64,000 bases of DNA from a virus. Lineage: Duplodnaviria > Heunggongvirae > Uroviricota > Caudoviricetes. The first letter of the stretch is position 1. Every line of letters starts with the position of its first letter. Below the pieces are notes generated by a model, which saw nothing but the letters and a program-made list of their open reading frames with translations, made no database searches and was not told the DNA's origin. The position numbers and the translations under genes are program-made. The stretch is from the IMG/VR virus record IMGVR_UViG_3300025000_000056. One strand, written 5' to 3'. Of the stretch, positions 8,396-40,870 are shown piece by piece.

Positions 8396-8464
8396 TAGCC
8401 ATTAGCTCAGTGAATAGAGTCCCGTTAATAACGGTGATGCGTGAGTTTGATCCTCACATGGCTA
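8396..8464 (+). ncRNA. 69-nt tRNA-like element: perfect 7-bp acceptor, D-arm and T-arm, but anticodon arm replaced by a 5-bp stem with 3-nt loop (TLE family)
   Basis: Acceptor tagccat/atggcta; D-arm gctc-agtgaata-gagt; anticodon arm ccgtt-aat-aacgg; T-arm gtgag-tttgatc-ctcac. Lies in the ORF-poor stretch 8173-8567, inside two weak tracked ORFs. Confidence 0.5.
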
Positions 8465-8474
8465 TAATTTACAA

Positions 8475-18591: not shown

Positions 18592-18704
18592 TGATGATAT
18601 CCTCACTAAATAGAATATCAGAGCCATTACCCTTTATGGTTTAAGGAGTCATTACCCCACTCCTTATCTGGTATTCTCCTTAGTGAGGAAACTCACTGAA
18701 TTAT

Positions 18705-19161
18705 GGGCCCGAGTTAGTTTCGACAGGGTGAATAGAGTATGTCCTCTGAGATGACAGTCGGAAAGACGACATTAAAGCAAATGCTACACCTATGAAAAAC
18801 GCTGCCTAATTTTAATTAATTAGGAACTACAGCCCTAAAACGGAGAGTACCCAACGACTCCTGAAGGTCGAAGACTGGGTAGTTAATAGTGGCGAAGTTG
18901 GCATACGCACGCTTGAAATAAAGCGAGGTCAAAGAATTAACTATGGCTGCATGCAAATGTGGAAGACGAAAGTCCCGTGCGGGTTCGAGTCCCGTCTATT
19001 AACGCATGTTTCCTGCATCGTATAATGCAGGTGGTGGAGGCGAGGGTTTAATAAGCGCTGGTTGCAATTCCAGTAGGTTAGACACTCAGATTTCTCAGTA
19101 GTAACAGGGACAAAGGGTAGACATTCTGGACACGGGGGGCGGCTCCCCGTCGGGTCCGCCA
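18705..19161 (+). ncRNA. ssrA: tmRNA-like gene (ssrA-like)
   Basis: 5' end gggcccgagttagtTTCGACAGGG matches the tmRNA tRNA-like domain consensus. Internal tag frame gca aat gct aca cct atg aaa aac GCT GCC TAA (ANATPMKNAA-stop) matches the Bacillus-type GCTGCCTAA tag end. 3' end cgggtcc-g-CCA is complementary to 5' gggcccg over 7 bp. Confidence 0.55.
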
Positions 19162-19170
19162 GCTAATTTT

Positions 19171-19363
19171 GCGGATATAGCTCAATGGTAGAGCGGCTAT
19201 CGAGAGATAGCGGTTAATTACGGAGTTATATAAACCATGTTGATCACATGAATAAAGTAATTCTTTGGAGATTAACTGTATAAGTGAGGAGTATGTGATT
19301 AGTCCGGACGAAAGCATATAAGTAGCTTATATACGGTTGGGGGTTCGAGCCCTTCTATCCGCT
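19171..19363 (+). ncRNA. tRNA-like element (TLE family, GAGA tetraloop arm) interrupted by a 123-nt insertion flanked by a 5-bp direct repeat CGGTT
   Basis: 5' part gcggata-ta-gctc-aatggta-gagc-g-gctatc-gaga-gatagc-ggtt (19171-19215). 3' part ggggg-ttcgagc-ccttc-tatccgc (19339-19362), with a perfect 7-bp acceptor. Joined pieces give 69 nt. CGGTT occurs at 19211-15 and 19334-38. Confidence 0.5.
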
Positions 19364-19379
19364 ACAATATTATTCTCAT

Positions 19380-19460
19380 GCGGGGTATAGTTTAGTGGTT
19401 TAAAACGAGCGAAGGAAGTTTATGATCGCTATCAGGGGTTCGAATCCCTTTGCCCTGCCC
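19380..19460 (+). tRNA. tRNA-like gene with encoded CCA and an expanded 13-nt anticodon loop AGGAAGTTTATGA
   Basis: Acceptor gcggggt/gccctgc (with G-U pairs); D-arm gttt-agtggttt-aaac; stem agcga/tcgct closed by a 13-nt loop; T-arm agggg-ttcgaat-ccctt; CCA at 19458-60. Confidence 0.45.
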
Positions 19461-19667
19461 AATCATCTGGAAGGTCTTGGTGACAGAGAAATATGTTAGA
19501 TGCGTCAGACATCAGTATTAAACTCTTGCAGTTCAATTCTGCACTTCCGCGATCATTTGTTAGTTTTGATTATATAGGTACTCTGTAGCCTGTAGTAATT
19601 GCAGGACAATGAGCTAAGTTGAGCTTAAATAACTCAAGCCTATATGATCTTAATTTGCTTACATAGC

Positions 19668-19747: not shown

Positions 19748-20767
19748 ATGAAAATCGTAACCGAAAACAACACGAAGAAGGAAATCTTATCTGCTTATTC
19801 CGAGGCCTTGGAATTGTTAAAAGCTAGTGAAGGTATCATAGTTGATCCAGCCAAAGAAATGTCCATGAAAAAAGCCGGAGAGACTTTGACTAAAGCCACT
19901 GAAACTGTTGGTCTTAATGTTGAAGACCAAATTGCAAAATTGCAGAAGAGTGTCGCCAGCATACTTGGTAATTTAGCGAATAGTTTTACGGAAGAAATTA
20001 AAACATTCAATGATTTACAAGAAGCAATCGCCCTCAAAGAATCCGAACTGAAAGAGCTGTTTGACATTGAAAAAGAAGCGTTCGCCTTAACTGCGTTGGT
20101 CAATGCAAATAGGGAAACCAAAGATAAGTTTAAGGCTGCTTTCGATGAAGACAAAGCAAGAATGCAGGCTGAACTTGATCAATTAAAAGCTGATTTGAAG
20201 GCTGAAAAAGCTGCTCATTTGAATGAAACCTATCTGCAAGACGAAGAAGTTAAACGGAAACGTGCCAGGGATCAAGAAGAATACACGTACGACTTCGCAA
20301 GGAAGAAGCAACTTGACGATAACGATTGGGAAGATGAGAAAAAGGTACGTGAAAAACAGTTATCGGAACTTGAAAGTGAAGTCAAAACAAGACTTGAACT
20401 GGTAACAACAAGGGAAGAAACGATTGACGACCTTAAGGCTAAAGTGGAAGAAATTCCGCAATTAGTTGACGCTGCCAGAAAAGCTGGAGAAGCTGAAGGC
20501 GAAAAGAAAGCTGGAACAAGTTTCGGATTTGAAAAGAGAGCAATCGAATCCAAGACAACTTCTGAAAAGACGATACTTGAAAATAAGGTTGCCATGCTAG
20601 AGGCTCAGCTCAATAAAGCGAATGACGAATTAACGAGACTAAATGAAGATTTGAAAACTGCATATAGCAAAATTCAGGAAACCGCTACGGCAGCTATCGA
20701 ATCTCAAGCCAATTCGCGAATGGTTAATAGTCTTGAGGCCTTAGTGAAAGATAAAACTCAGAAGTAA
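19748..20767 (+). CDS. coiled-coil protein (339 aa), embedded in the RNA-gene cluster
   Basis: GAGGAGG RBS; Lys/Glu-rich heptad-like composition throughout. Confidence 0.55.
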   Translation: MKIVTENNTKKEILSAYSEALELLKASEGIIVDPAKEMSMKKAGETLTKATETVGLNVEDQIAKLQKSVASILGNLANSFTEEIKTFNDLQEAIALKESELKELFDIEKEAFALTALVNANRETKDKFKAAFDEDKARMQAELDQLKADLKAEKAAHLNETYLQDEEVKRKRARDQEEYTYDFARKKQLDDNDWEDEKKVREKQLSELESEVKTRLELVTTREETIDDLKAKVEEIPQLVDAARKAGEAEGEKKAGTSFGFEKRAIESKTTSEKTILENKVAMLEAQLNKANDELTRLNEDLKTAYSKIQETATAAIESQANSRMVNSLEALVKDKTQK

Positions 20768-20985: not shown

Positions 20986-21113
20986 TTGTTATCTTTAGTT
21001 AAGATTTATCTTAACTATTAATTTTAGATGGAAAGCCCCTAAAATAGACGTAGAGATAAGTGGCGAAGGGGACGGGAGCGATATGATATGGTGAGTCGTT
21101 CCAAGCAATTATC

Positions 21114-21233
21114 ACCGAGGTACCCAAGTGGTTAGGGAGCGTATCCGGCGCGCCTCTCCGCTGTAAAGAGATGTAATCTTCTATGGGGAGCGGTAAACGT
21201 AATAGGCGGGTTCAAATCCCGTCCTCGGTGCCA
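21114..21233 (+). tRNA. 120-nt tRNA-like gene (type-II-like 3-bp D-stem) with about 40-50 extra nucleotides; encoded CCA
   Basis: Acceptor accgagg/cctcggt (perfect 7 bp); D-arm ccc-aagtggtta-ggg; T-arm gcggg-ttcaaat-cccgt; CCA at 21231-33; internal palindrome GGCGCGCC. Confidence 0.45.
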
Positions 21234-21516: not shown

Positions 21517-21677
21517 GGCGAGGTGGCCGAGCGGTTGAAGGCGCTAGTCAAGGGATACGATAGTTAAAGGTCTAGACGGAGGAAGTTTATGATCGTCAAA
21601 ACTATTTCCCAGCAACCGGTACTGAGCTCTAAACTATCTACGAGTGATGTTCGAAAGTTCGAATCTTTCCCTTGCCG
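21517..21677 (+). tRNA. 161-nt tRNA-like gene: Ser/Leu/Tyr-type 5' half and canonical T-arm/acceptor separated by about 75 extra nucleotides
   Basis: Acceptor ggcgagg/ccttgcc (7 bp with one G-U); D-arm gcc-gagcggttgaa-ggc; T-arm gaaag-ttcgaat-ctttc; internal hairpin gacgg-AGGAAGTTTATGA-tcgtc. Confidence 0.45.
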
Positions 21678-21701
21678 ACGTAATTAAAGGAGATGATTTT
21701 A

Positions 21702-22762: not shown

Positions 22763-22986
22763 TTTGTATGATGCGAAATCTACTTAAGATCTTTGCTAAA
22801 AATACACTTAAGGCAACGATACTTTATTGTCCTTTTTGTGCGAGTCCTAAAACAAAATATCACGGACTAGTACAAAAAGACGGTAAGAATAGTAAAACTG
22901 ATAATTATTCAATTACTTGTCTTGCCTGTGGAGCCTCTGGTAATGTTCAAGAAGTTTGGCTTAAAGCGCCAGAAAAAGCTCTATAA
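22759..22986 (+). CDS. zinc-ribbon protein (CPFC...CLAC)
   Basis: ORF track. Confidence 0.45.
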   Translation: MICMMRNLLKIFAKNTLKATILYCPFCASPKTKYHGLVQKDGKNSKTDNYSITCLACGASGNVQEVWLKAPEKAL

Positions 22987-23127
22987 TAACTACATGAGGG
23001 TTGGCAGGTGCCAGGATACGTTAGGTCTACGCAGTTCAAGTCTGCCGAGAGCGGGGAAGTTTATGCCGTTTGGTTAACCTTGATGGTTCGATACCATCAA
23101 ACCCTCACTATATTCAAGGAGGCTGTT

Positions 23128-29257: not shown

Positions 29258-30754
29258 TTGAGTACTGAAATTCAGGGTTATGGTCGTGGTAGAAATGGCG
29301 TTCAATTTACAGGAGATGAAATTGAACGCACAGATTTATATAATCAGCAAGGCGGATCAGATAAGGTCTATATTGCTATTATGAGCCATGACCCTGCAAC
29401 GAATTATTATTACGCTACGGGTTTTTACGGCAAGCGCGGCGGAACAATGAGTGTCGCCGGTAAATATGCCGGTGTCAGTGAAGTTAAAGCTCGTAATGAA
29501 TACGAAAAGCTGATTAAATCTAAATTAGCTAAATTTTATCAGGAAAATCAAGGAGATGTTTCAGGGCCTCAGCATACATCTCCAGCTCGCTATACGCCAC
29601 CTACTAGTGCTTATAAGACCATCGATACGGATGATTATAAACCACGTATCTTATGGCCTCAGAACGCTCAAACCTTTAATGATAAGTGTGAGCGATTAGA
29701 AGGCGAAGACATTATTGAGTATACGATCCGTAAGCATCGAGCGTTGATTGATGATCCAAACTATGTCTTAGAACAAAAGTATGATGGGATTCGGATTACA
29801 GCTCATGGAACACCAGATAAGACTAGAACTTTTGGGCGTAATGCCAGCGTAACAGATGGTACTAAGCCTATTGAGAAAACGGATAACTTGCCACACATCG
29901 AAACCATTCAATGGCCTAAGGAGTTATGGGGTACAATCTTGGATTGTGAGTTATTACCTCGTAATGGAATTGATGATCCAAGTTTGACGAAAGAAACCCT
30001 AGAAGAAGCCGGTATGATCGATTGCGCTACGGTATCAGGCAACTTAAACTCTAAGGATGGTCGAGACAATACGGATTTAGTTCTTGTAGTCTTTGACATC
30101 TTACAAGAAGGTAAAGTTGATCTGACAAAACTGGAATGGAAATACCGTCGTATGAAACTTACAGCCTTATTCAACGATGTGATTCCTAACTTACCTGGTT
30201 ATGATCCCGAAACATTCCCGCTGATTTTGAGTCGTTATACGATTAAAGACAAAGAACAGTATTTACGTGACATACTCGCCAAGGGATTCGAAGGCGGCAT
30301 GTTTAAACACATTGACGCAAAGTACATGGAAGGTGGCCGCCCTACTAAGAATTGGTATAAGGTTAAGAAAATGTTGACGGCCGATTGTATCGTAACTGGC
30401 TGGGAGGGTGCTAACGAAGGTAAATATGTCGGTATGCTGGGCGCTATTAAATTCGGTCAGTGGATTACTGAGGCTAAAGCTTTTGAACTTAATGTAAAAG
30501 TTAAGGATTTTATTGATCCTGATGTTCTTGGTATTCCTCGTCTTCCACATTATTTATTACTTGATTGTGGTAAGGCCTCAGGGATGACCGATGCTATCCG
30601 TAAAGACATGACCGATCACTTTGATCGTGATTATCTCGGTAAAGTTATTGAACTTGAAGCCATGGAACGATTAGCCTCAGGAAAGTTCAGACACCCGCGT
30701 TTTGTGAGAATTCGCGATGATCGCGATACGAATTCAGCTATTTGGGAGGATTAA
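29258..30754 (+). CDS. ATP-dependent DNA ligase
   Basis: TTG start after GAGGTG; adenylation motif EQKYDGIRI (KxDG). Confidence 0.7.
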   Translation: MSTEIQGYGRGRNGVQFTGDEIERTDLYNQQGGSDKVYIAIMSHDPATNYYYATGFYGKRGGTMSVAGKYAGVSEVKARNEYEKLIKSKLAKFYQENQGDVSGPQHTSPARYTPPTSAYKTIDTDDYKPRILWPQNAQTFNDKCERLEGEDIIEYTIRKHRALIDDPNYVLEQKYDGIRITAHGTPDKTRTFGRNASVTDGTKPIEKTDNLPHIETIQWPKELWGTILDCELLPRNGIDDPSLTKETLEEAGMIDCATVSGNLNSKDGRDNTDLVLVVFDILQEGKVDLTKLEWKYRRMKLTALFNDVIPNLPGYDPETFPLILSRYTIKDKEQYLRDILAKGFEGGMFKHIDAKYMEGGRPTKNWYKVKKMLTADCIVTGWEGANEGKYVGMLGAIKFGQWITEAKAFELNVKVKDFIDPDVLGIPRLPHYLLLDCGKASGMTDAIRKDMTDHFDRDYLGKVIELEAMERLASGKFRHPRFVRIRDDRDTNSAIWED

Positions 30755-37700: not shown

Positions 37701-37725
37701 AGAATTTAAGGAGGAATTGTTAATT

Positions 37726-39021
37726 ATGGCAATGGCATTAATGGACAGTGCTGATGAGGATGTATTGGTCGTAAGCGCACCGAAACAAACAGTTGACGTA
37801 AAGATTTTGGCTGCACAGGGTATCGCTAATTTGAAGGCAATTGCTGATGAACTCAACGATCAATTCGTGGAAAGAATTGAAATAGTACAAGATATAATCC
37901 GAGCGGTCGTTACTAAGAATCATCTGTTTATCATGGGGCCTCCGGGAACAGCAAAATCTGAATTAACTCGTGCTTTCACGGGACATATCGATCAAGCAAA
38001 TTACTTTGAATGGTTGTTAAACAAAACGTCAGATCCAGCGGATATACTGGGTCCTTATAGTTTAAAAGGTATGGAGAAGGACAAGTTCGAACGTAAATCT
38101 AAAGGCCGCTTGCCTGAGGCTCATATCGTGTTCTTGGATGAAATCTGGAAATCGAATGAACCAACTCTGAACATCTTACTTCCGATCATCAATGAACGTA
38201 TCTTTTATAATGACGGTGTGCCTAATGATGTTCCGCTATACTCTATGTTTTGTGCCTCGAATGAAACACCAGAAGATGAAAGCTTAGCAGCGCTTTACGA
38301 TAGACTCATGTTTAGGCATAATGCTCAGTACGTTAAAGAACCGGCAAACAAAGTTAAGATGGCTAAACAATCGGTTGAGCGCCGTAATCCCGCCATTAAG
38401 ACTCATTTTAAACACACTTTAGTGACACTCGAAGAACTCGAAGCCATTCACGAAATACTGGAAGAAGTTCTTATTCCGGACGATATCTATAAGACCTTCG
38501 AGAAGCTTGGTCGTGAACTTAACAAAGAAGGCATTTACTTCTCTGATAGACGGTATGTTGCCTGCTTTAAGGTTCTTCAGGGGAACGCCTTAATCAATGG
38601 CCGAACAAGTGTTGATTTTGATGATTTTGTGTCTCTGATTCATGTCTTGTGGGAAAAAGAAGAACACATTAAGATCATTGAAAGCTATGTTATGAAGCTA
38701 ATCAATCCTTATGATGACAAAGTTAAAGAGCTTTATGATACGGCTATAGAAATCAAGAACCGTACGGAACGTATCGATAATAAGACAGAGAAAGCCGGAG
38801 CGGCTGTAGAGGCTCGTGTTAAGTATGAACAAATCGTCAAGAAGATTGAACGAGTCATTAAAGATGCTCAAACTGCCGGACGTGACGTGACGAATCTAGA
38901 GAAGAAACGTGACGATATCATCAAAATGAATGAAGAGATGATTCAGGAAGTTTTACAAATTCCCAAAGCAGCCGCTCGTAAAAGAACCACAACCGATGAC
39001 GAAGAGGCTATGCCGTTCTGA
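37726..39021 (+). CDS. MoxR-like AAA+ ATPase with C-terminal ..EEAMPF tip
   Basis: Walker A GPPGTAKS; Walker B FLDEIWK; AAA_3-like architecture; PF C-terminus. Confidence 0.7.
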   Translation: MAMALMDSADEDVLVVSAPKQTVDVKILAAQGIANLKAIADELNDQFVERIEIVQDIIRAVVTKNHLFIMGPPGTAKSELTRAFTGHIDQANYFEWLLNKTSDPADILGPYSLKGMEKDKFERKSKGRLPEAHIVFLDEIWKSNEPTLNILLPIINERIFYNDGVPNDVPLYSMFCASNETPEDESLAALYDRLMFRHNAQYVKEPANKVKMAKQSVERRNPAIKTHFKHTLVTLEELEAIHEILEEVLIPDDIYKTFEKLGRELNKEGIYFSDRRYVACFKVLQGNALINGRTSVDFDDFVSLIHVLWEKEEHIKIIESYVMKLINPYDDKVKELYDTAIEIKNRTERIDNKTEKAGAAVEARVKYEQIVKKIERVIKDAQTAGRDVTNLEKKRDDIIKMNEEMIQEVLQIPKAAARKRTTTDDEEAMPF

Positions 39022-39067
39022 GATAATGATTGGTTAGAACAATATGAAGACGAGGAGATGATGTAAC

Positions 39068-40870
39068 TTGACTATAAAAATAGCAGAACCGACGGTCGCA
39101 GGGCCGTCAGTTGCTTCTATCTTCGGAGTTAGTGAAACCGCTCAGGAATTCAAACCCATTGTCAAGACAGATCATGCCGTTAATGTAGATTGGGCTGATA
39201 TTGATATATATCAAGATCTTATCAGTCAATCTCCTGCCATGGCAGATAACTTACGAGCTGGTCATGAACACTTAAAAACTTTCGATACACTAAGTCAAGA
39301 CTTATTCGGAGCGTTGTTTAAGTATACGCCTAAAGTCGCCGAACAAGGCGAAATGAAAGCCAGTCATAAGTTAAACCACAAGCTTATAACAGAGCTTATG
39401 GACACGCCTGAGTATGCTAATTTAAGACAAAATACCAGACTTGATATCCTAGGTTCAGCAATCGCCACTGAAGTTATGCAACAAGAAGCTTCTCGCCGTG
39501 TCATCGCTATTAAAGAAGATTATAATCGTAAGCGAGAAGAAAGTGAAGGAGAAGGCGGCGAAGGTGAAGACGGAGAACCTGGCGGTAGCGGAGGAGGTTC
39601 TGGTTCTGGAGGCGGAGGAGGCCAAAGCAAGCCGCCAATGGATCCGGATATTTTAAAGGCCATTAACGGACTTATCGAACAAGAAAAGAAGAAACAAGAT
39701 CTTCAAAAGAAACTTGACGATATGAAAAAGAAGCAATCCGGCAATGGTCAAGGAGATCCCGGTGGTCAAGGTGGTAACCCTGGTGCTGGTGGTGGTAGTA
39801 ACGGTCAAGGCGTTACCGATGAAGAAGCCGAAGCTATGGCTAAATTACAACAACAAATGCAAGAGATTCAAGATGACATCGATGCCAAGGAACAGCAAAT
39901 TGATGAACAACTTGACAATGGTGCCGCAACAGAACTTCAACAAGTCATGGCTAAGGCCGCCGATAAGGCTGATAAAGACATTGATGAGGTTCGCGATTTC
40001 TTAAATGCATGGGGGATGGAAAAGGGTGATATAGCGCAGCGCATACCCATTGAAGAGAAGAAAGCCGCACTCGAACGCATCCGTGGATCGTCAAAACTTA
40101 AAGAGTTCTCGAAACTGATTGGTCGTTTCCGTGAGCTTGCTATGGATGATCAAAAGAAGAAAACCAAGGATGGCGCTACGAATATTAAGTCCGTCACGAC
40201 AGGTAATAAACTTGAATCTATATTACCTAGTGAAAAACTTAGACTTGCAGCGGGTCCAGTTGTTAAACGTGATTTCTATCGCAAATATAATCAAAAGGAA
40301 CTTCTTCAATACGAGCTTGAAAATACTCAGAAAAAGGGCAAGGGTCCGATTATCTGTTGTGTTGATGTCTCAGGCTCAATGAGTGGTCAAGCGGAAAAAT
40401 GGTCTAAAGCGGTAGCATTAGCATTGCTTGAAATCGCACAAAAACAACGACGTGATTACGCTTGTATTCTATTTGAAAGTTATGTAGATCCTAAGTGGGT
40501 CTATATTGTTCCTAAGGACAGCTTAAAACCTAATATTGTCTTAGATATCGCTGAGACATTTCCAGGCGGCGGCACTAGTTTTGAACCACCATTAAAAGAA
40601 GCCTTAAAGATCTTGAAGATGAATAAGTTTAAATTAGCGGACATTGTCTTTATCACAGATGGTGATTCTCACTTAGAAAAAGGTTTTCTTGAAGAGTTTT
40701 TAAAGATCAAAAAAGAGAAAGAGTTCAGAGTGAAATCTGTCTTGATCGGTTCTGGTGGCTATGGAGCAAGTGACCGTACATTAAAACTCTTTAGTGATGA
40801 TATCGTTACGGTTTCTAAATTAGCTGATGTCGAAGACGAAGTAGCGAGTTCAATCTTTAGTCAGGTGTAA
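39068..40870 (+). CDS. VWA-domain protein (MoxR partner) with Gly-rich low-complexity linker
   Basis: TTG start 9 nt after GAGGAG; MIDAS motif DVSGSMSG; GEGGEGEDGEPGGSGGG low-complexity segment. Confidence 0.65.
   Translation: MTIKIAEPTVAGPSVASIFGVSETAQEFKPIVKTDHAVNVDWADIDIYQDLISQSPAMADNLRAGHEHLKTFDTLSQDLFGALFKYTPKVAEQGEMKASHKLNHKLITELMDTPEYANLRQNTRLDILGSAIATEVMQQEASRRVIAIKEDYNRKREESEGEGGEGEDGEPGGSGGGSGSGGGGGQSKPPMDPDILKAINGLIEQEKKKQDLQKKLDDMKKKQSGNGQGDPGGQGGNPGAGGGSNGQGVTDEEAEAMAKLQQQMQEIQDDIDAKEQQIDEQLDNGAATELQQVMAKAADKADKDIDEVRDFLNAWGMEKGDIAQRIPIEEKKAALERIRGSSKLKEFSKLIGRFRELAMDDQKKKTKDGATNIKSVTTGNKLESILPSEKLRLAAGPVVKRDFYRKYNQKELLQYELENTQKKGKGPIICCVDVSGSMSGQAEKWSKAVALALLEIAQKQRRDYACILFESYVDPKWVYIVPKDSLKPNIVLDIAETFPGGGTSFEPPLKEALKILKMNKFKLADIVFITDGDSHLEKGFLEEFLKIKKEKEFRVKSVLIGSGGYGASDRTLKLFSDDIVTVSKLADVEDEVASSIFSQV

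What the first reader, a model, noticed from the sequence alone, without database searches (positions are those of the whole stretch)
19171..19363. tRNA-like element split by a 123-nt insertion flanked by a 5-bp direct repeat (CGGTT)
The 5' part (19171-19215) contains the acceptor strand, D-arm, GAGA-tetraloop arm and variable region. The 3' part (19339-19362) contains the T-arm and the perfectly complementary acceptor strand gcggata/tatccgc. Joining them gives exactly 69 nt, like the other family members. The intervening 123 nt is bounded by CGGTT at 19211-15 and 19334-38, which resembles a target-site duplication. The insert carries a perfect 7-bp hairpin (atataag-tag-cttatat) and an SD-like gtgaggag-tatg segment related to the 13-nt loop motif. 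It could be a small mobile insertion or a non-group-I intervening sequence.
Basis: seen in the sequence. Interest (0 to 1): 0.65.

Follow-up and report, generated by a model that had tools for sequence, protein, structure and literature searches.

The report
Phage tRNA-Gly-like gene with inserted arm
A large phage carries a glycine-tRNA-derived RNA gene that has no anticodon and has 118 extra bases in its variable loop; the split is real, but nothing tested shows the extra piece to be an intron or a jumping element, so it is a modest curiosity inside an unusually rich cluster of tRNA-like RNA genes.

Summary
19171-19215 plus 19339-19362 join into a 69-nt cloverleaf with a perfect 7-bp acceptor stem. 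ARAGORN calls the joined sequence a tRNA without a readable anticodon. It aligns end to end with uninterrupted tRNA-Gly(GCC) genes of other phages, and only the anticodon arm differs (a 6-bp stem with a GAGA loop). The 123 nt lie exactly between variable loop and T stem and are bounded by CGGTT twice.

The insert is single-copy in about 72 kb of this phage and absent from every collection searched. It has no terminal inverted repeats, no bulge-helix-bulge motif at the junctions and no Rfam intron or ribozyme match. It is not more structured than shuffles, and its likeness to the 13-nt loop motif is at chance level.

The window is a ~220-kb metagenomic phage. The element starts 10 nt after a tmRNA-like gene that itself encloses a tRNA-like element, within a 7-kb cluster of non-decoding tRNA-like genes. 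Two of these carry extra segments at the same variable-loop site.

Best reading (confidence 0.45): a one-off DNA insertion with a 5-bp duplication at the one site where tRNA architecture tolerates an extra arm, kept in the RNA. The acceptor/T-arm half stays usable by tRNA-processing enzymes. RNA-level removal is not excluded.

The parts
19171..19177 (+). Acceptor stem, 5' strand (GCGGATA). G1, C2 and G3 match the bacterial tRNA-Gly acceptor identity set.
   Evidence: Identity set from established knowledge.
19180..19194 (+). D arm (GCTC-AATGGTA-GAGC) with canonical A14, R15, G18, G19 and A21.
19196..19211 (+). Substitute for the anticodon arm: perfect 6-bp stem closed by a GAGA (GNRA) tetraloop. 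There is no anticodon.
   Evidence: Pair probability 0.98 in the full-length ensemble.
19211..19215 (+). Direct repeat copy 1 (CGGTT): last base of the stem plus the variable-loop bases GGTT.
19216..19333 (+). 118 nt of extra, AT-rich, single-copy DNA. Predicted as two hairpin domains (19212-19277, using the GGTT of copy 1, and 19278-19332). Contains GACGAAAG at 19307-19314.
19334..19338 (+). Direct repeat copy 2 (CGGTT). It supplies the variable-loop bases next to the T stem, including U48 for an A15:U48 Levitt pair.
   Evidence: Structural role is inferred.
19339..19355 (+). T arm (GGGGG-TTCGAGC-CCTTC) with a canonical T loop.
19356..19363 (+). Acceptor stem 3' strand (TATCCGC) plus discriminator T. 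No CCA is encoded.
18705..19161 (+). Context: tmRNA-like gene in standard order. 5' piece with tag frame ANATPMKNAA* at 18777-18809. 3' piece with T-arm-like hairpin 19133-19149, acceptor CGGGTCC 19151-19157 and GCCA. It encloses tRNA-like element E4 (18882-19003). The finding starts 10 nt after its CCA.
   Evidence: Rfam tmRNA_permuted, two pieces of 26.6 and 24.5 bits, each below the gathering score of 47.. ARAGORN does not call it.
19381..19458 (+). Context: next tRNA-like gene, 18 nt downstream, with a 13-nt loop AGGAAGTTTATGA in place of the anticodon loop.

Best explanation
**What it is.** The element is a tRNA-Gly-derived, non-decoding tRNA-like gene of a ~220-kb phage. Its anticodon arm has been replaced by a stable GNRA hairpin.

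**How the split arose.** At some point 118 bp of unrelated DNA entered the variable loop, duplicating CGGTT. That is the only place in the tRNA fold where an extra arm (as in class II tRNAs) can project without breaking the L-shape.

**What happens to the extra DNA (inferred).** It is most likely transcribed and kept as an extra two-hairpin arm, not spliced out. The duplication leaves the native variable-loop bases next to both the anticodon-arm side and the T-stem side.

**How the element works (inferred).** The gene probably still does what the other short-loop tRNA-like genes of the cluster do. It offers an acceptor/T-arm minihelix plus D arm to host tRNA enzymes (RNase P, RNase Z, CCA-adding enzyme). 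This would punctuate and stabilise the ncRNA transcript that starts with the tmRNA-like gene 10 nt upstream.

**Shown:** the tRNA-Gly ancestry, the position of the insert, the repeat, its single-copy state, and the absence of known intron or mobile-element features.

**Inferred:** origin as a DNA insertion, retention in the RNA, and the processing-handle role.
For: - **Ancestry and position.** Full-length collinear match of the joined sequence to uninterrupted tRNA-Gly genes, with the break exactly between variable loop and T stem.
- **Fold of the joined RNA.** Cloverleaf fold and ARAGORN call.
- **Core intact.** All canonical tertiary-contact bases and a 7/7 acceptor stem are present, so the core has not decayed.
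- **Not a mobile element.** Single copy; no relatives of the insert anywhere searched.
- **Not a known intron.** No intron or ribozyme family and no bulge-helix-bulge at the junctions.
- **Same site tolerated elsewhere.** Other members of the cluster carry extra segments at the same site: E4 at 18882-19003 (about 52 nt) and E9 at 21110-21232 (about 55 nt).
- **Anticodon dispensable.** Four genes of the window have 3-4-nt loops instead of an anticodon loop.
- **Placement.** Tandem arrangement tmRNA-like gene, this element, next tRNA-like gene, with 10- and 18-nt spacers.
- **Background knowledge.** RNase P needs only the acceptor/T-arm stack (established from minihelix substrates).
Against: - **Fold competition.** Nearest-neighbour folding of the full 193 nt prefers a competing structure: -59.4 against -53.5 kcal/mol for the forced cloverleaf. 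D- and T-stem pair probabilities are 0.02-0.06.
- **No sign of selection for compatibility.** The real insert is no more compatible with the cloverleaf than shuffled inserts. ddG is 5.9 against 4.4 +/- 1.8, and it keeps fewer cloverleaf pairs than 97% of shuffles. No shuffle gave a full cloverleaf either, so the test is weak.
- **Insert not well structured.** Alone it scores z = -1.24.
- **No direct evidence.** There are no expression data and no related genome to show that the interrupted gene is maintained.
- **Mechanism unidentified.** A 5-bp flanking repeat is what transposition would leave, and the mechanism that made it is not known.
Confidence: 0.45

Rival explanations
1. The insert is a functional second module and the RNA is a bipartite, Y-RNA-like molecule. 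A tRNA-like module would recruit tRNA enzymes, and a stem-loop module would bind a protein such as a Ro60/Rsr-type ring through a GNCGAAN0-1G-like motif.
For: - The two closest relatives of the neighbouring 339-aa gene carry a circularly permuted tRNA-like RNA in the slot just upstream of that gene. It matches Rfam YrlA at 31.1 bits and shows compensatory changes in the T stem and outer stem.
- The YrlA Ro60 motif GNCGAAN0-1G (PMC4201824) occurs as GACGAAAG in this insert (19307) and in the extra segment of neighbour E4 (18965).
Against: - The motif occurs 29 times in the window, so its chance is about 0.04 and 0.016 for the two inserts (own arithmetic).
- It is not near the 5' end, as it is in YrlA.
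- The tRNA-like part is not permuted.
- No Rfam YrlA or Y_RNA match at E<=10.
- No TROVE/Ro60 gene among the ORFs of the window. The VWA protein at 39068-40870 is a MoxR-partner type.
- The inserts of E4 and E5 are not significantly alike.
Confidence: 0.15
2. The gene is dead. A random DNA insertion, or a repair or recombination scar, recently broke a tRNA-like gene, and neither the RNA nor the insert has a function.
For: - The insert looks like random AT-rich DNA: not structured, no recognisable motif above chance, and it competes with the cloverleaf.
- Other tRNA-like genes of the cluster are degenerate, with imperfect acceptor stems.
Against: - The exon parts are intact: 7/7 acceptor pairs, a canonical D and T loop, and 88-92% identity to a working tRNA-Gly outside the anticodon arm.
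- The insertion lies at the one permissive site, about 5 of 69 positions.
- About two dozen metagenomic contigs carry a neighbouring 339-aa gene identical in sequence; the one contig read across the element (L024) has the same interrupted allele.
Confidence: 0.15
3. The 118 nt are a miniature non-autonomous transposable element that inserted with a 5-bp target-site duplication.
For: A 5-bp direct repeat lies exactly at the junctions, with a chance of about 1e-3. Target duplications of 5 bp are typical of several IS and Tn families (established knowledge).
Against: - No terminal inverted repeats (the ends are AATTACGG... and ...CTTATATA).
- No second copy in about 72 kb of this genome or anywhere searched.
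- No transposase nearby.
Confidence: 0.12
4. The 123 nt are removed at the RNA level. Either they are cut out and the halves ligated by protein enzymes, or they are cut out to leave a two-piece tRNA-like RNA held together by the acceptor stem, as in two-piece tmRNAs.
For: - Exact restoration of a 69-nt tRNA-like sequence.
- The full-length RNA is predicted to misfold, so removal would help.
- A distant relative, Bacillus phage G, encodes an RNA ligase, a kinase and a KptA/Tpt1 2'-phosphotransferase next to the homologue of the neighbouring gene.
- The adjacent tmRNA-like gene also appears to be interrupted.
Against: - No bulge-helix-bulge at the junctions, and the exon ends are not complementary.
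- No self-splicing or self-cleaving family matched.
- No RNA ligase or splicing endonuclease among the ORFs of the window. The one ligase found, at 29258-30754, is an ATP-dependent DNA ligase.
- In bacteria only group I and II introns at position 37/38 are known in tRNA genes (PMC4033280).
Confidence: 0.08

Closest known systems
Long variable arm of class II tRNAs (Leu, Ser, bacterial Tyr, Sec)
   Same: [quoted passage not shown] The rest of the cloverleaf is unchanged.
   Different: Class II arms are a single hairpin of roughly 10-25 nt and belong to decoding tRNAs. Here there are 123 nt in two predicted hairpins, in a tRNA-Gly-type (class I) body that has no anticodon.
YrlA / bacterial and phage Y RNAs (Rfam RF02553; Chen et al. 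2014, PMC4201824)
   Same: Both are non-decoding RNAs made of a tRNA-like D/T/acceptor module plus a second module, and both occur in phages. A YrlA-like RNA occupies the corresponding slot in the two nearest relatives. A GNCGAANG word is present in the insert.
   Different: YrlA is circularly permuted: its ends lie in the anticodon-stem position and its acceptor stem is closed by a loop. It lies within 4 kb of a Ro60 gene and has the motif near its 5' end. None of this holds here, and there is no Rfam match.
mascRNA at the MALAT1 3' end and plant-mitochondrial t-elements
   Same: Both are tRNA-like structures without a usable anticodon whose job is to be cut by RNase P/RNase Z, defining the ends of a neighbouring RNA. 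This element sits 10 nt after a tmRNA-like gene.
   Different: Those are eukaryotic nuclear or organellar examples and carry no large insertion. The processing role here is inferred, not shown.
Archaeal tRNA introns at non-canonical positions and split tRNA genes (bulge-helix-bulge dependent)
   Same: Short protein-spliced intervening sequences that can lie outside position 37/38, including near the T arm.
   Different: They require a bulge-helix-bulge motif and an archaeal-type splicing endonuclease. No such motif is present at these junctions, and the genome is a bacterial virus.
Group I introns in bacterial and phage tRNA genes
   Same: An interrupted tRNA-type gene in the bacterial world.
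   Different: Group I introns sit in the anticodon loop and have a conserved catalytic core well above 123 nt. No Rfam intron match was found.
Miniature inverted-repeat transposable elements (MITEs)
   Same: Size of about 100-200 bp, no coding capacity, a short flanking direct repeat.
   Different: MITEs have terminal inverted repeats and occur in several copies. This insert has neither.

Membership tests
Canonical tRNA gene (tRNA-Gly) | Cloverleaf with 7-bp acceptor stem, D and T arms, and conserved tertiary-contact bases | tested here: met
   For the joined sequence. U8, A14, G18, G19, T54-A58 and G53:C61 were read.
Canonical tRNA gene (tRNA-Gly) | 7-nt anticodon loop with an anticodon | tested here: not met
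   6-bp stem plus GAGA tetraloop. ARAGORN reports a 2-nt 'anticodon'.
Canonical tRNA gene (tRNA-Gly) | Contiguous gene reaching the Rfam tRNA gathering score (29 bits) | tested here: not met
   The genomic sequence gives only 13 bits, for 19171-19222. The joined sequence cannot be given to the Rfam tool.
Group I / group II intron in a tRNA gene | Catalytic core recognisable by a covariance model; insertion in the anticodon loop (37/38) | tested here: not met
   No intron family at E<=10. The position is variable loop/T stem. Background: PMC4033280.
Archaeal-type enzymatically spliced tRNA intron | Bulge-helix-bulge motif spanning both splice sites | tested here: not met
   A script scan with relaxed rules found 4 chance-level motifs, none at 19210-19215 / 19333-19338.
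Archaeal-type enzymatically spliced tRNA intron | Splicing endonuclease and RNA ligase available | not testable with these tools
   None among the ORFs of the window. About 150 kb of the phage and the host are not available.
MITE / IS-type insertion | Target-site duplication | tested here: met
   CGGTT at 19211-19215 and 19334-19338.
MITE / IS-type insertion | Terminal inverted repeats | tested here: not met
   The ends AATTACGG... and ...CTTATATA are not complementary. Only a sub-terminal 7-nt AT palindrome is shared.
MITE / IS-type insertion | Several copies in the genome or in relatives | tested here: not met
   Only about 72 kb of the ~220-kb genome could be checked.
Class II tRNA variable arm | Extra arm between positions 45 and 48 | tested here: met
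   Alignment to tRNA-Gly.
Class II tRNA variable arm | Single hairpin of about 10-25 nt in a Leu/Ser/Tyr/Sec body | tested here: not met
   123 nt in two predicted hairpins, in a tRNA-Gly-type body.
YrlA / Y RNA-like (RF02553) | Rfam covariance-model match | tested here: not met
   No YrlA or Y_RNA match at E<=10. Relatives L025/L026 give 31.1 bits against a gathering score of 69.
YrlA / Y RNA-like (RF02553) | Permuted tRNA-like domain (T arm, closed acceptor hairpin, D arm) | tested here: not met
   The order here is the normal tRNA order.
YrlA / Y RNA-like (RF02553) | GNCGAAN0-1G motif near the 5' end | tested here: inconclusive
   GACGAAAG is present at 19307-19314, but inside the insert and at chance-level frequency.
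YrlA / Y RNA-like (RF02553) | Ro60/TROVE gene within about 4 kb on the same strand | tested here: not met
   No TROVE domain in any tested ORF of the window.
RNase P/Z processing handle (mascRNA / t-element type) | Cleavage by RNase P at the 5' end of the tRNA-like structure, releasing the upstream RNA | not testable with these tools
   Only the arrangement is seen: a 7-bp acceptor plus 5-bp T stem, 10 nt after the tmRNA-like CCA.

The most novel reading that the evidence does not exclude
The 123 nt are removed from the transcript. Either they are spliced out by protein enzymes, or they are excised to leave a two-piece tRNA-like RNA. This would be the first intervening sequence in a tRNA-type gene of a bacterial virus that is neither group I/II nor bulge-helix-bulge dependent, and it would lie at the variable loop/T stem junction. 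It might be part of a wider habit of this phage, whose tmRNA-like gene next door also encloses a foreign element.
Probability: 0.08. Interest if true: 0.8.

Novelty: new variant of a known kind. Interest (0 to 1): 0.42.

Why it matters
Bacterial and phage tRNA genes are considered structurally uniform. The only accepted interruptions are group I/II introns beside the anticodon.

A tRNA-Gly-derived gene that has lost its anticodon and carries a 118-nt addition in the variable loop shows how tRNA bodies are re-used in large phages as scaffolds or processing handles. It also shows where such bodies tolerate cargo.

If the extra segment turned out to be removed or to bind a protein, it would define a new RNA-processing route or a new Y-RNA-like architecture.

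The practical value now is as a pointer to a 7-kb region worth RNA-level study. That region holds a tmRNA-like gene, at least ten non-decoding tRNA-like genes and a recurrent GGAAGUUUAUG loop.

Tried and rejected
**Near and distant DNA searches of the region against 50,697 phage records**
- Nothing beyond a weak protein-gene match.
- Nothing for the tmRNA-like stretch.

**Exact-pattern scans**
- The 5' half: 0 hits in the genome, metagenome and viral collections.
- A 22-mer of the insert: 0 hits in the same three collections. Neither an uninterrupted allele nor a second insert copy could be found, and the phage itself is not in those collections.

**Synteny route**
- Homologues of the 339-aa neighbour led to the same phage (L024, identical) and to relatives at <=54% identity. 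These are L025, L026, L027/28 and L029.
- The IMG/VR scan found none.
- RecJ homologues led to a 40%-identity phage fragment (L031-33).
- None of these holds an orthologue of this element.

**Motif scan**
- A scan for the GGAAGTTTATG...GGTTCGA combination in viral contigs gave 22 hits. They looked like ordinary ribosome-binding sites or coding sequence, not relatives.

**Hypotheses dropped**
- Homology between this insert and the extra segments of E4, E9, E10, E11 or the surrounding spacers: none above shuffles.
- Ro60 hypothesis for the VWA protein at 39068-40870. PDB phmmer found no Ro60. PHROG similarity to an 'RNA-binding protein' family is confined to the VWA domain. Homologues carry VWA/CoxE domains only.
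- The minus-strand ORF 19078-19317 has no family match and was not called as a gene in the public contig.
- No promoter or terminator signal inside the insert. Overall counts were not above shuffles.

**Other**
- ARAGORN does not call the tmRNA-like gene, with or without E4.
- Walking upstream of the window failed because no gene with exactly that product is on record.
- Downstream there are only replication and repair genes.

Full report
**What the window is.** All genes lie on the + strand. They include a PolIII alpha subunit, RecA, UvrD, RecJ, ThyX, an ATP-dependent DNA ligase, SNF2 and MoxR/VWA proteins, and an anti-repressor. The same sequence is part of a 220,824-bp contig from a groundwater metagenome (L024, identical over the finding). 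The 339-aa gene at 19748-20767 is 37% identical to gp268 of the jumbo Bacillus phage G. The RecJ is closest, at about 40%, to RecJ of Clostridia. So this is a large phage of a Firmicute-type host with no close sequenced relative.

**The observation.** 19171-19215 contains an acceptor strand, a D arm, a 6-bp stem with a GAGA loop, and GGTT. 19339-19362 contains a T arm with a canonical TTCGAGC loop and the perfectly complementary acceptor strand.
- Joined, the 69/70 nt fold into a cloverleaf: -29.4 kcal/mol, z -3.0, no shuffle as good.
- ARAGORN calls the joined sequence a tRNA with an unreadable 2-nt 'anticodon'. It makes the same kind of call for the intact 69-nt neighbour at 16905-16973.
- The strongest new evidence is that the joined sequence aligns over its whole length with uninterrupted, annotated tRNA-Gly genes of Caulobacter phages. 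Against RB23 tRNA-Gly(GCC) it matches 23/25 nt in the 5' part and 22/25 nt in T arm plus acceptor, including discriminator U. Only the anticodon arm is unrelated, and the break falls exactly between variable loop and T stem.

The two parts therefore belong to one gene, descended from a tRNA-Gly gene. CGGTT is present at both junctions, so the net extra DNA is 118 nt (19216-19333).

**Is the extra DNA an intron or a mobile element?** None of the tests I could run says so.
- It is single-copy in the window, in 8 kb beyond it, and in all fetched loci.
- It is absent from 50,697 phage records.
- A 22-mer from it has no exact match in the genome, metagenome or viral collections.
- It has no terminal inverted repeats and no coding capacity. 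Its GAGGAG sits 1 nt from the ATG, too close for a working ribosome-binding site (read).
- No Rfam family (introns, self-cleaving ribozymes, Y RNA) matches even at E<=10.
- A script scan found no bulge-helix-bulge motif at the junctions.
- On its own the insert is not more structured than shuffles: z -1.24, two predicted hairpins.
- Its similarity to the recurrent 13-nt loop motif, and to the extra segments of neighbouring elements, is at chance level.
- The 5-bp repeat remains the one feature pointing to an insertion event. Its chance at fixed junctions is about 1e-3 (own arithmetic).

**Context changes the picture.** The element is one of at least eleven tRNA-like genes between 8.4 and 23.1 kb.
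- Four have a 3-4-nt loop where the anticodon loop should be: 8396-8465, 16829-16897, 16905-16973, and this one.
- Four hairpins carry a conserved GGAAGTTTATG loop: one free-standing near 16554, and three inside tRNA-like genes (19381-19458, 21517-21680, 22985-23107).
- Two carry roughly 50-nt extra segments at the same variable-loop site as here: 18882-19003 and 21110-21232.
- Immediately upstream lies a tmRNA-like gene. The Rfam tmRNA_permuted model matches two pieces in standard order. One is 18680-18809, which includes a tag frame ANATPMKNAA ending in GCUGCCUAA (26.6 bits). The other is 19097-19170, with a T-arm-like hairpin, CGGGUCC and GCCA (24.5 bits).
- The acceptor strands GGGCCCG and CGGGUCC pair with a G3:U70 wobble.
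- The tRNA-like element 18882-19003 lies between the two pieces.
- The finding starts 10 nt after the tmRNA-like CCA, and the next tRNA-like gene follows after 18 nt.

The anticodon is therefore dispensable for this family. The variable-loop site repeatedly tolerates additions. The genes are packed like a co-transcribed, RNase P-punctuated array.

**Relatives.** The nearest homologues of the 339-aa gene (54% identity, L025 and L026) have a different RNA in the slot just upstream. It is a circularly permuted tRNA-like RNA that matches Rfam YrlA (Y RNA-like) at 31.1 bits, with compensatory changes between the two loci.
- This prompted a test of a Y-RNA reading for the insert.
- The Ro60-associated word GNCGAAN0-1G (PMC4201824) occurs as GACGAAAG in this insert and in the extra segment of 18882-19003.
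- However, the word occurs 29 times in the window. No Ro60/TROVE gene is present among the ORFs of the window. The VWA protein at 39068-40870 is a MoxR-partner type.
- I keep this as a minority hypothesis.

**Can the full-length RNA still be a tRNA mimic?** The 5-bp duplication leaves the native variable-loop bases next to both flanking stems, including U48 opposite A15. All tertiary-contact bases are intact.
- Against this, nearest-neighbour folding of the 193 nt prefers a competing helix between 19175-19183 and 19222-19230. The energies are -59.4 against -53.5 kcal/mol.
- The real insert is not more cloverleaf-compatible than shuffled inserts.
- That test is weak, because no shuffle gave a full cloverleaf and tertiary contacts are not modelled. 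Still, it gives no sign of selection on the insert.
- The lower acceptor pairs (1-4) keep probabilities of 0.99 or more.

**Verdict.** The split is real and the gene's origin is now clear.
- The most likely account (0.45) is a single DNA insertion with a 5-bp duplication into the permissive variable loop of an already non-decoding tRNA-Gly-derived gene. The extra arm is retained in the RNA, and the acceptor/T-arm half remains available to tRNA-processing enzymes.
- The rivals are a protein-binding second module (0.15), a dead gene (0.15), a miniature transposon (0.12), and RNA-level removal (0.08). The last would be the remarkable case.
- No comparative or expression data exist to decide among them. 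RNA mapping across the junction is the decisive experiment.
- As a finding it is a new variant of known kinds (tRNA-like ncRNAs, class II-type arms). It is of moderate interest in itself, and of more interest as part of the cluster.

Noticed in passing
window 18705-19161: A tmRNA-like gene in standard order. The 5' end GGGCCCGAGTTAGTTTCGACAGGG is followed by a tag frame ANATPMKNAA* (18777-18809). The 3' end is TTCTGGACACGGGGGGCGGCTCCCCGTCGGGTCCGCCA, and the acceptor stem has a G3:U70 wobble. Rfam tmRNA_permuted matches it as two separate pieces of 26.6 and 24.5 bits. ARAGORN does not call it. The tRNA-like element 18882-19003 is nested between the pieces, so RNase P/Z cuts there could make a two-piece tmRNA.
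   Followed up: partly
window 16554, 19413, 21580 (exact) and 23054 (1 mismatch): GGAAGTTTATG is always displayed as an 11-13-nt hairpin loop. One copy is in a free hairpin and three are inside tRNA-like genes, at the anticodon-loop position or on inserted arms. It resembles a ribosome-binding site plus start codon, but the SD part is not conserved in all copies and the downstream 'ORFs' are 4-33 codons of unrelated sequence.
   Followed up: partly
window 8396-8465, 16829-16897, 16905-16973: Three intact 69-70-nt tRNA-like genes with 3-4-nt loops (AAU/AATA, GTAA, TGAC) instead of an anticodon loop. 8396-8465 scores 36.6 bits on Rfam tRNA but is missed by the default filters. 16829-16897 has a G3:U70 pair, the alanine identity element.
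   Followed up: partly
window 21110-21232, 21517-21680, 22985-23107, 19528-19542: Larger tRNA-derived RNAs. One has a class II-like body with an encoded CCA and a roughly 55-nt variable region. One has a Leu/Ser-like 5' part with a long arm tipped by the GGAAGTTTATG loop. One has two T-arm-like hairpins. There is also a stray T-arm-like hairpin GCAGTTCAATTCTGC downstream of 19458.
   Followed up: no
window 15900-16500: A 600-nt non-coding stretch that is strongly G-rich and C-poor on the + strand (GC skew 0.51-0.55). It is made of degenerate GGTA/GTAA-rich units, for which TRF reports periods of 16-26 nt.
   Followed up: partly
window 17580-17830: Four similar hairpins whose loops end in GTTGAAA(A), for example GGCGTT-GAGAGTAGTTGAAA-ACGCC. 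They lie in a non-coding stretch with high A content on the + strand (read).
   Followed up: no
L025 3452-3600 and L026 275-423: A circularly permuted tRNA-like RNA (T arm, closed acceptor hairpin, D arm, long outer stem) lies just upstream of the gp268-like gene in two related phage fragments. It matches Rfam YrlA at 31.1 bits against a gathering score of 69, with compensatory changes in the T stem and outer stem. No Ro60 gene is visible on the 14-kb contig.
   Followed up: partly
L025 4736-4820 and L026 1581-1667: 85-87-nt tRNA-like genes with a long variable arm and an encoded CCA. ARAGORN calls one tRNA-SeC(tca), a possible opal suppressor, and the other undetermined. About 400 nt of conserved non-coding sequence follows.
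   Followed up: no
L005 about 2900-2790 and 2056-2010 (minus strand as shown): An unrelated viral contig also carries odd tRNA-like genes. One has a long insertion before the T arm. One seems to lack the anticodon arm altogether (GTCTTCA-TA-CGTGGTGTTTGCG-TGGGTTCGACTCCCA-C-TGAAGAC).
   Followed up: no
window 37717-40870: A MoxR AAA+ ATPase and a 600-aa VWA protein form a pair. The VWA protein has more than 100 homologues, many on ~200-kb contigs, so it may be a useful marker for this group of large phages.
   Followed up: partly
L031 2911-4736: A related phage fragment (RecJ 40% identical) has 1.8 kb of non-coding DNA directly upstream of recJ, with repeated 'ggtttttac' hairpin-like units and one 77-nt tRNA-Ser(gga)-like gene.
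   Followed up: no
L001 (Bacillus phage G, 193353-205595): Around the gp268 homologue, phage G encodes a putative kinase, an RNA ligase and a KptA/Tpt1 RNA 2'-phosphotransferase. Together these would make a complete RNA repair or splicing toolkit. No counterpart was seen in this window.
   Followed up: no
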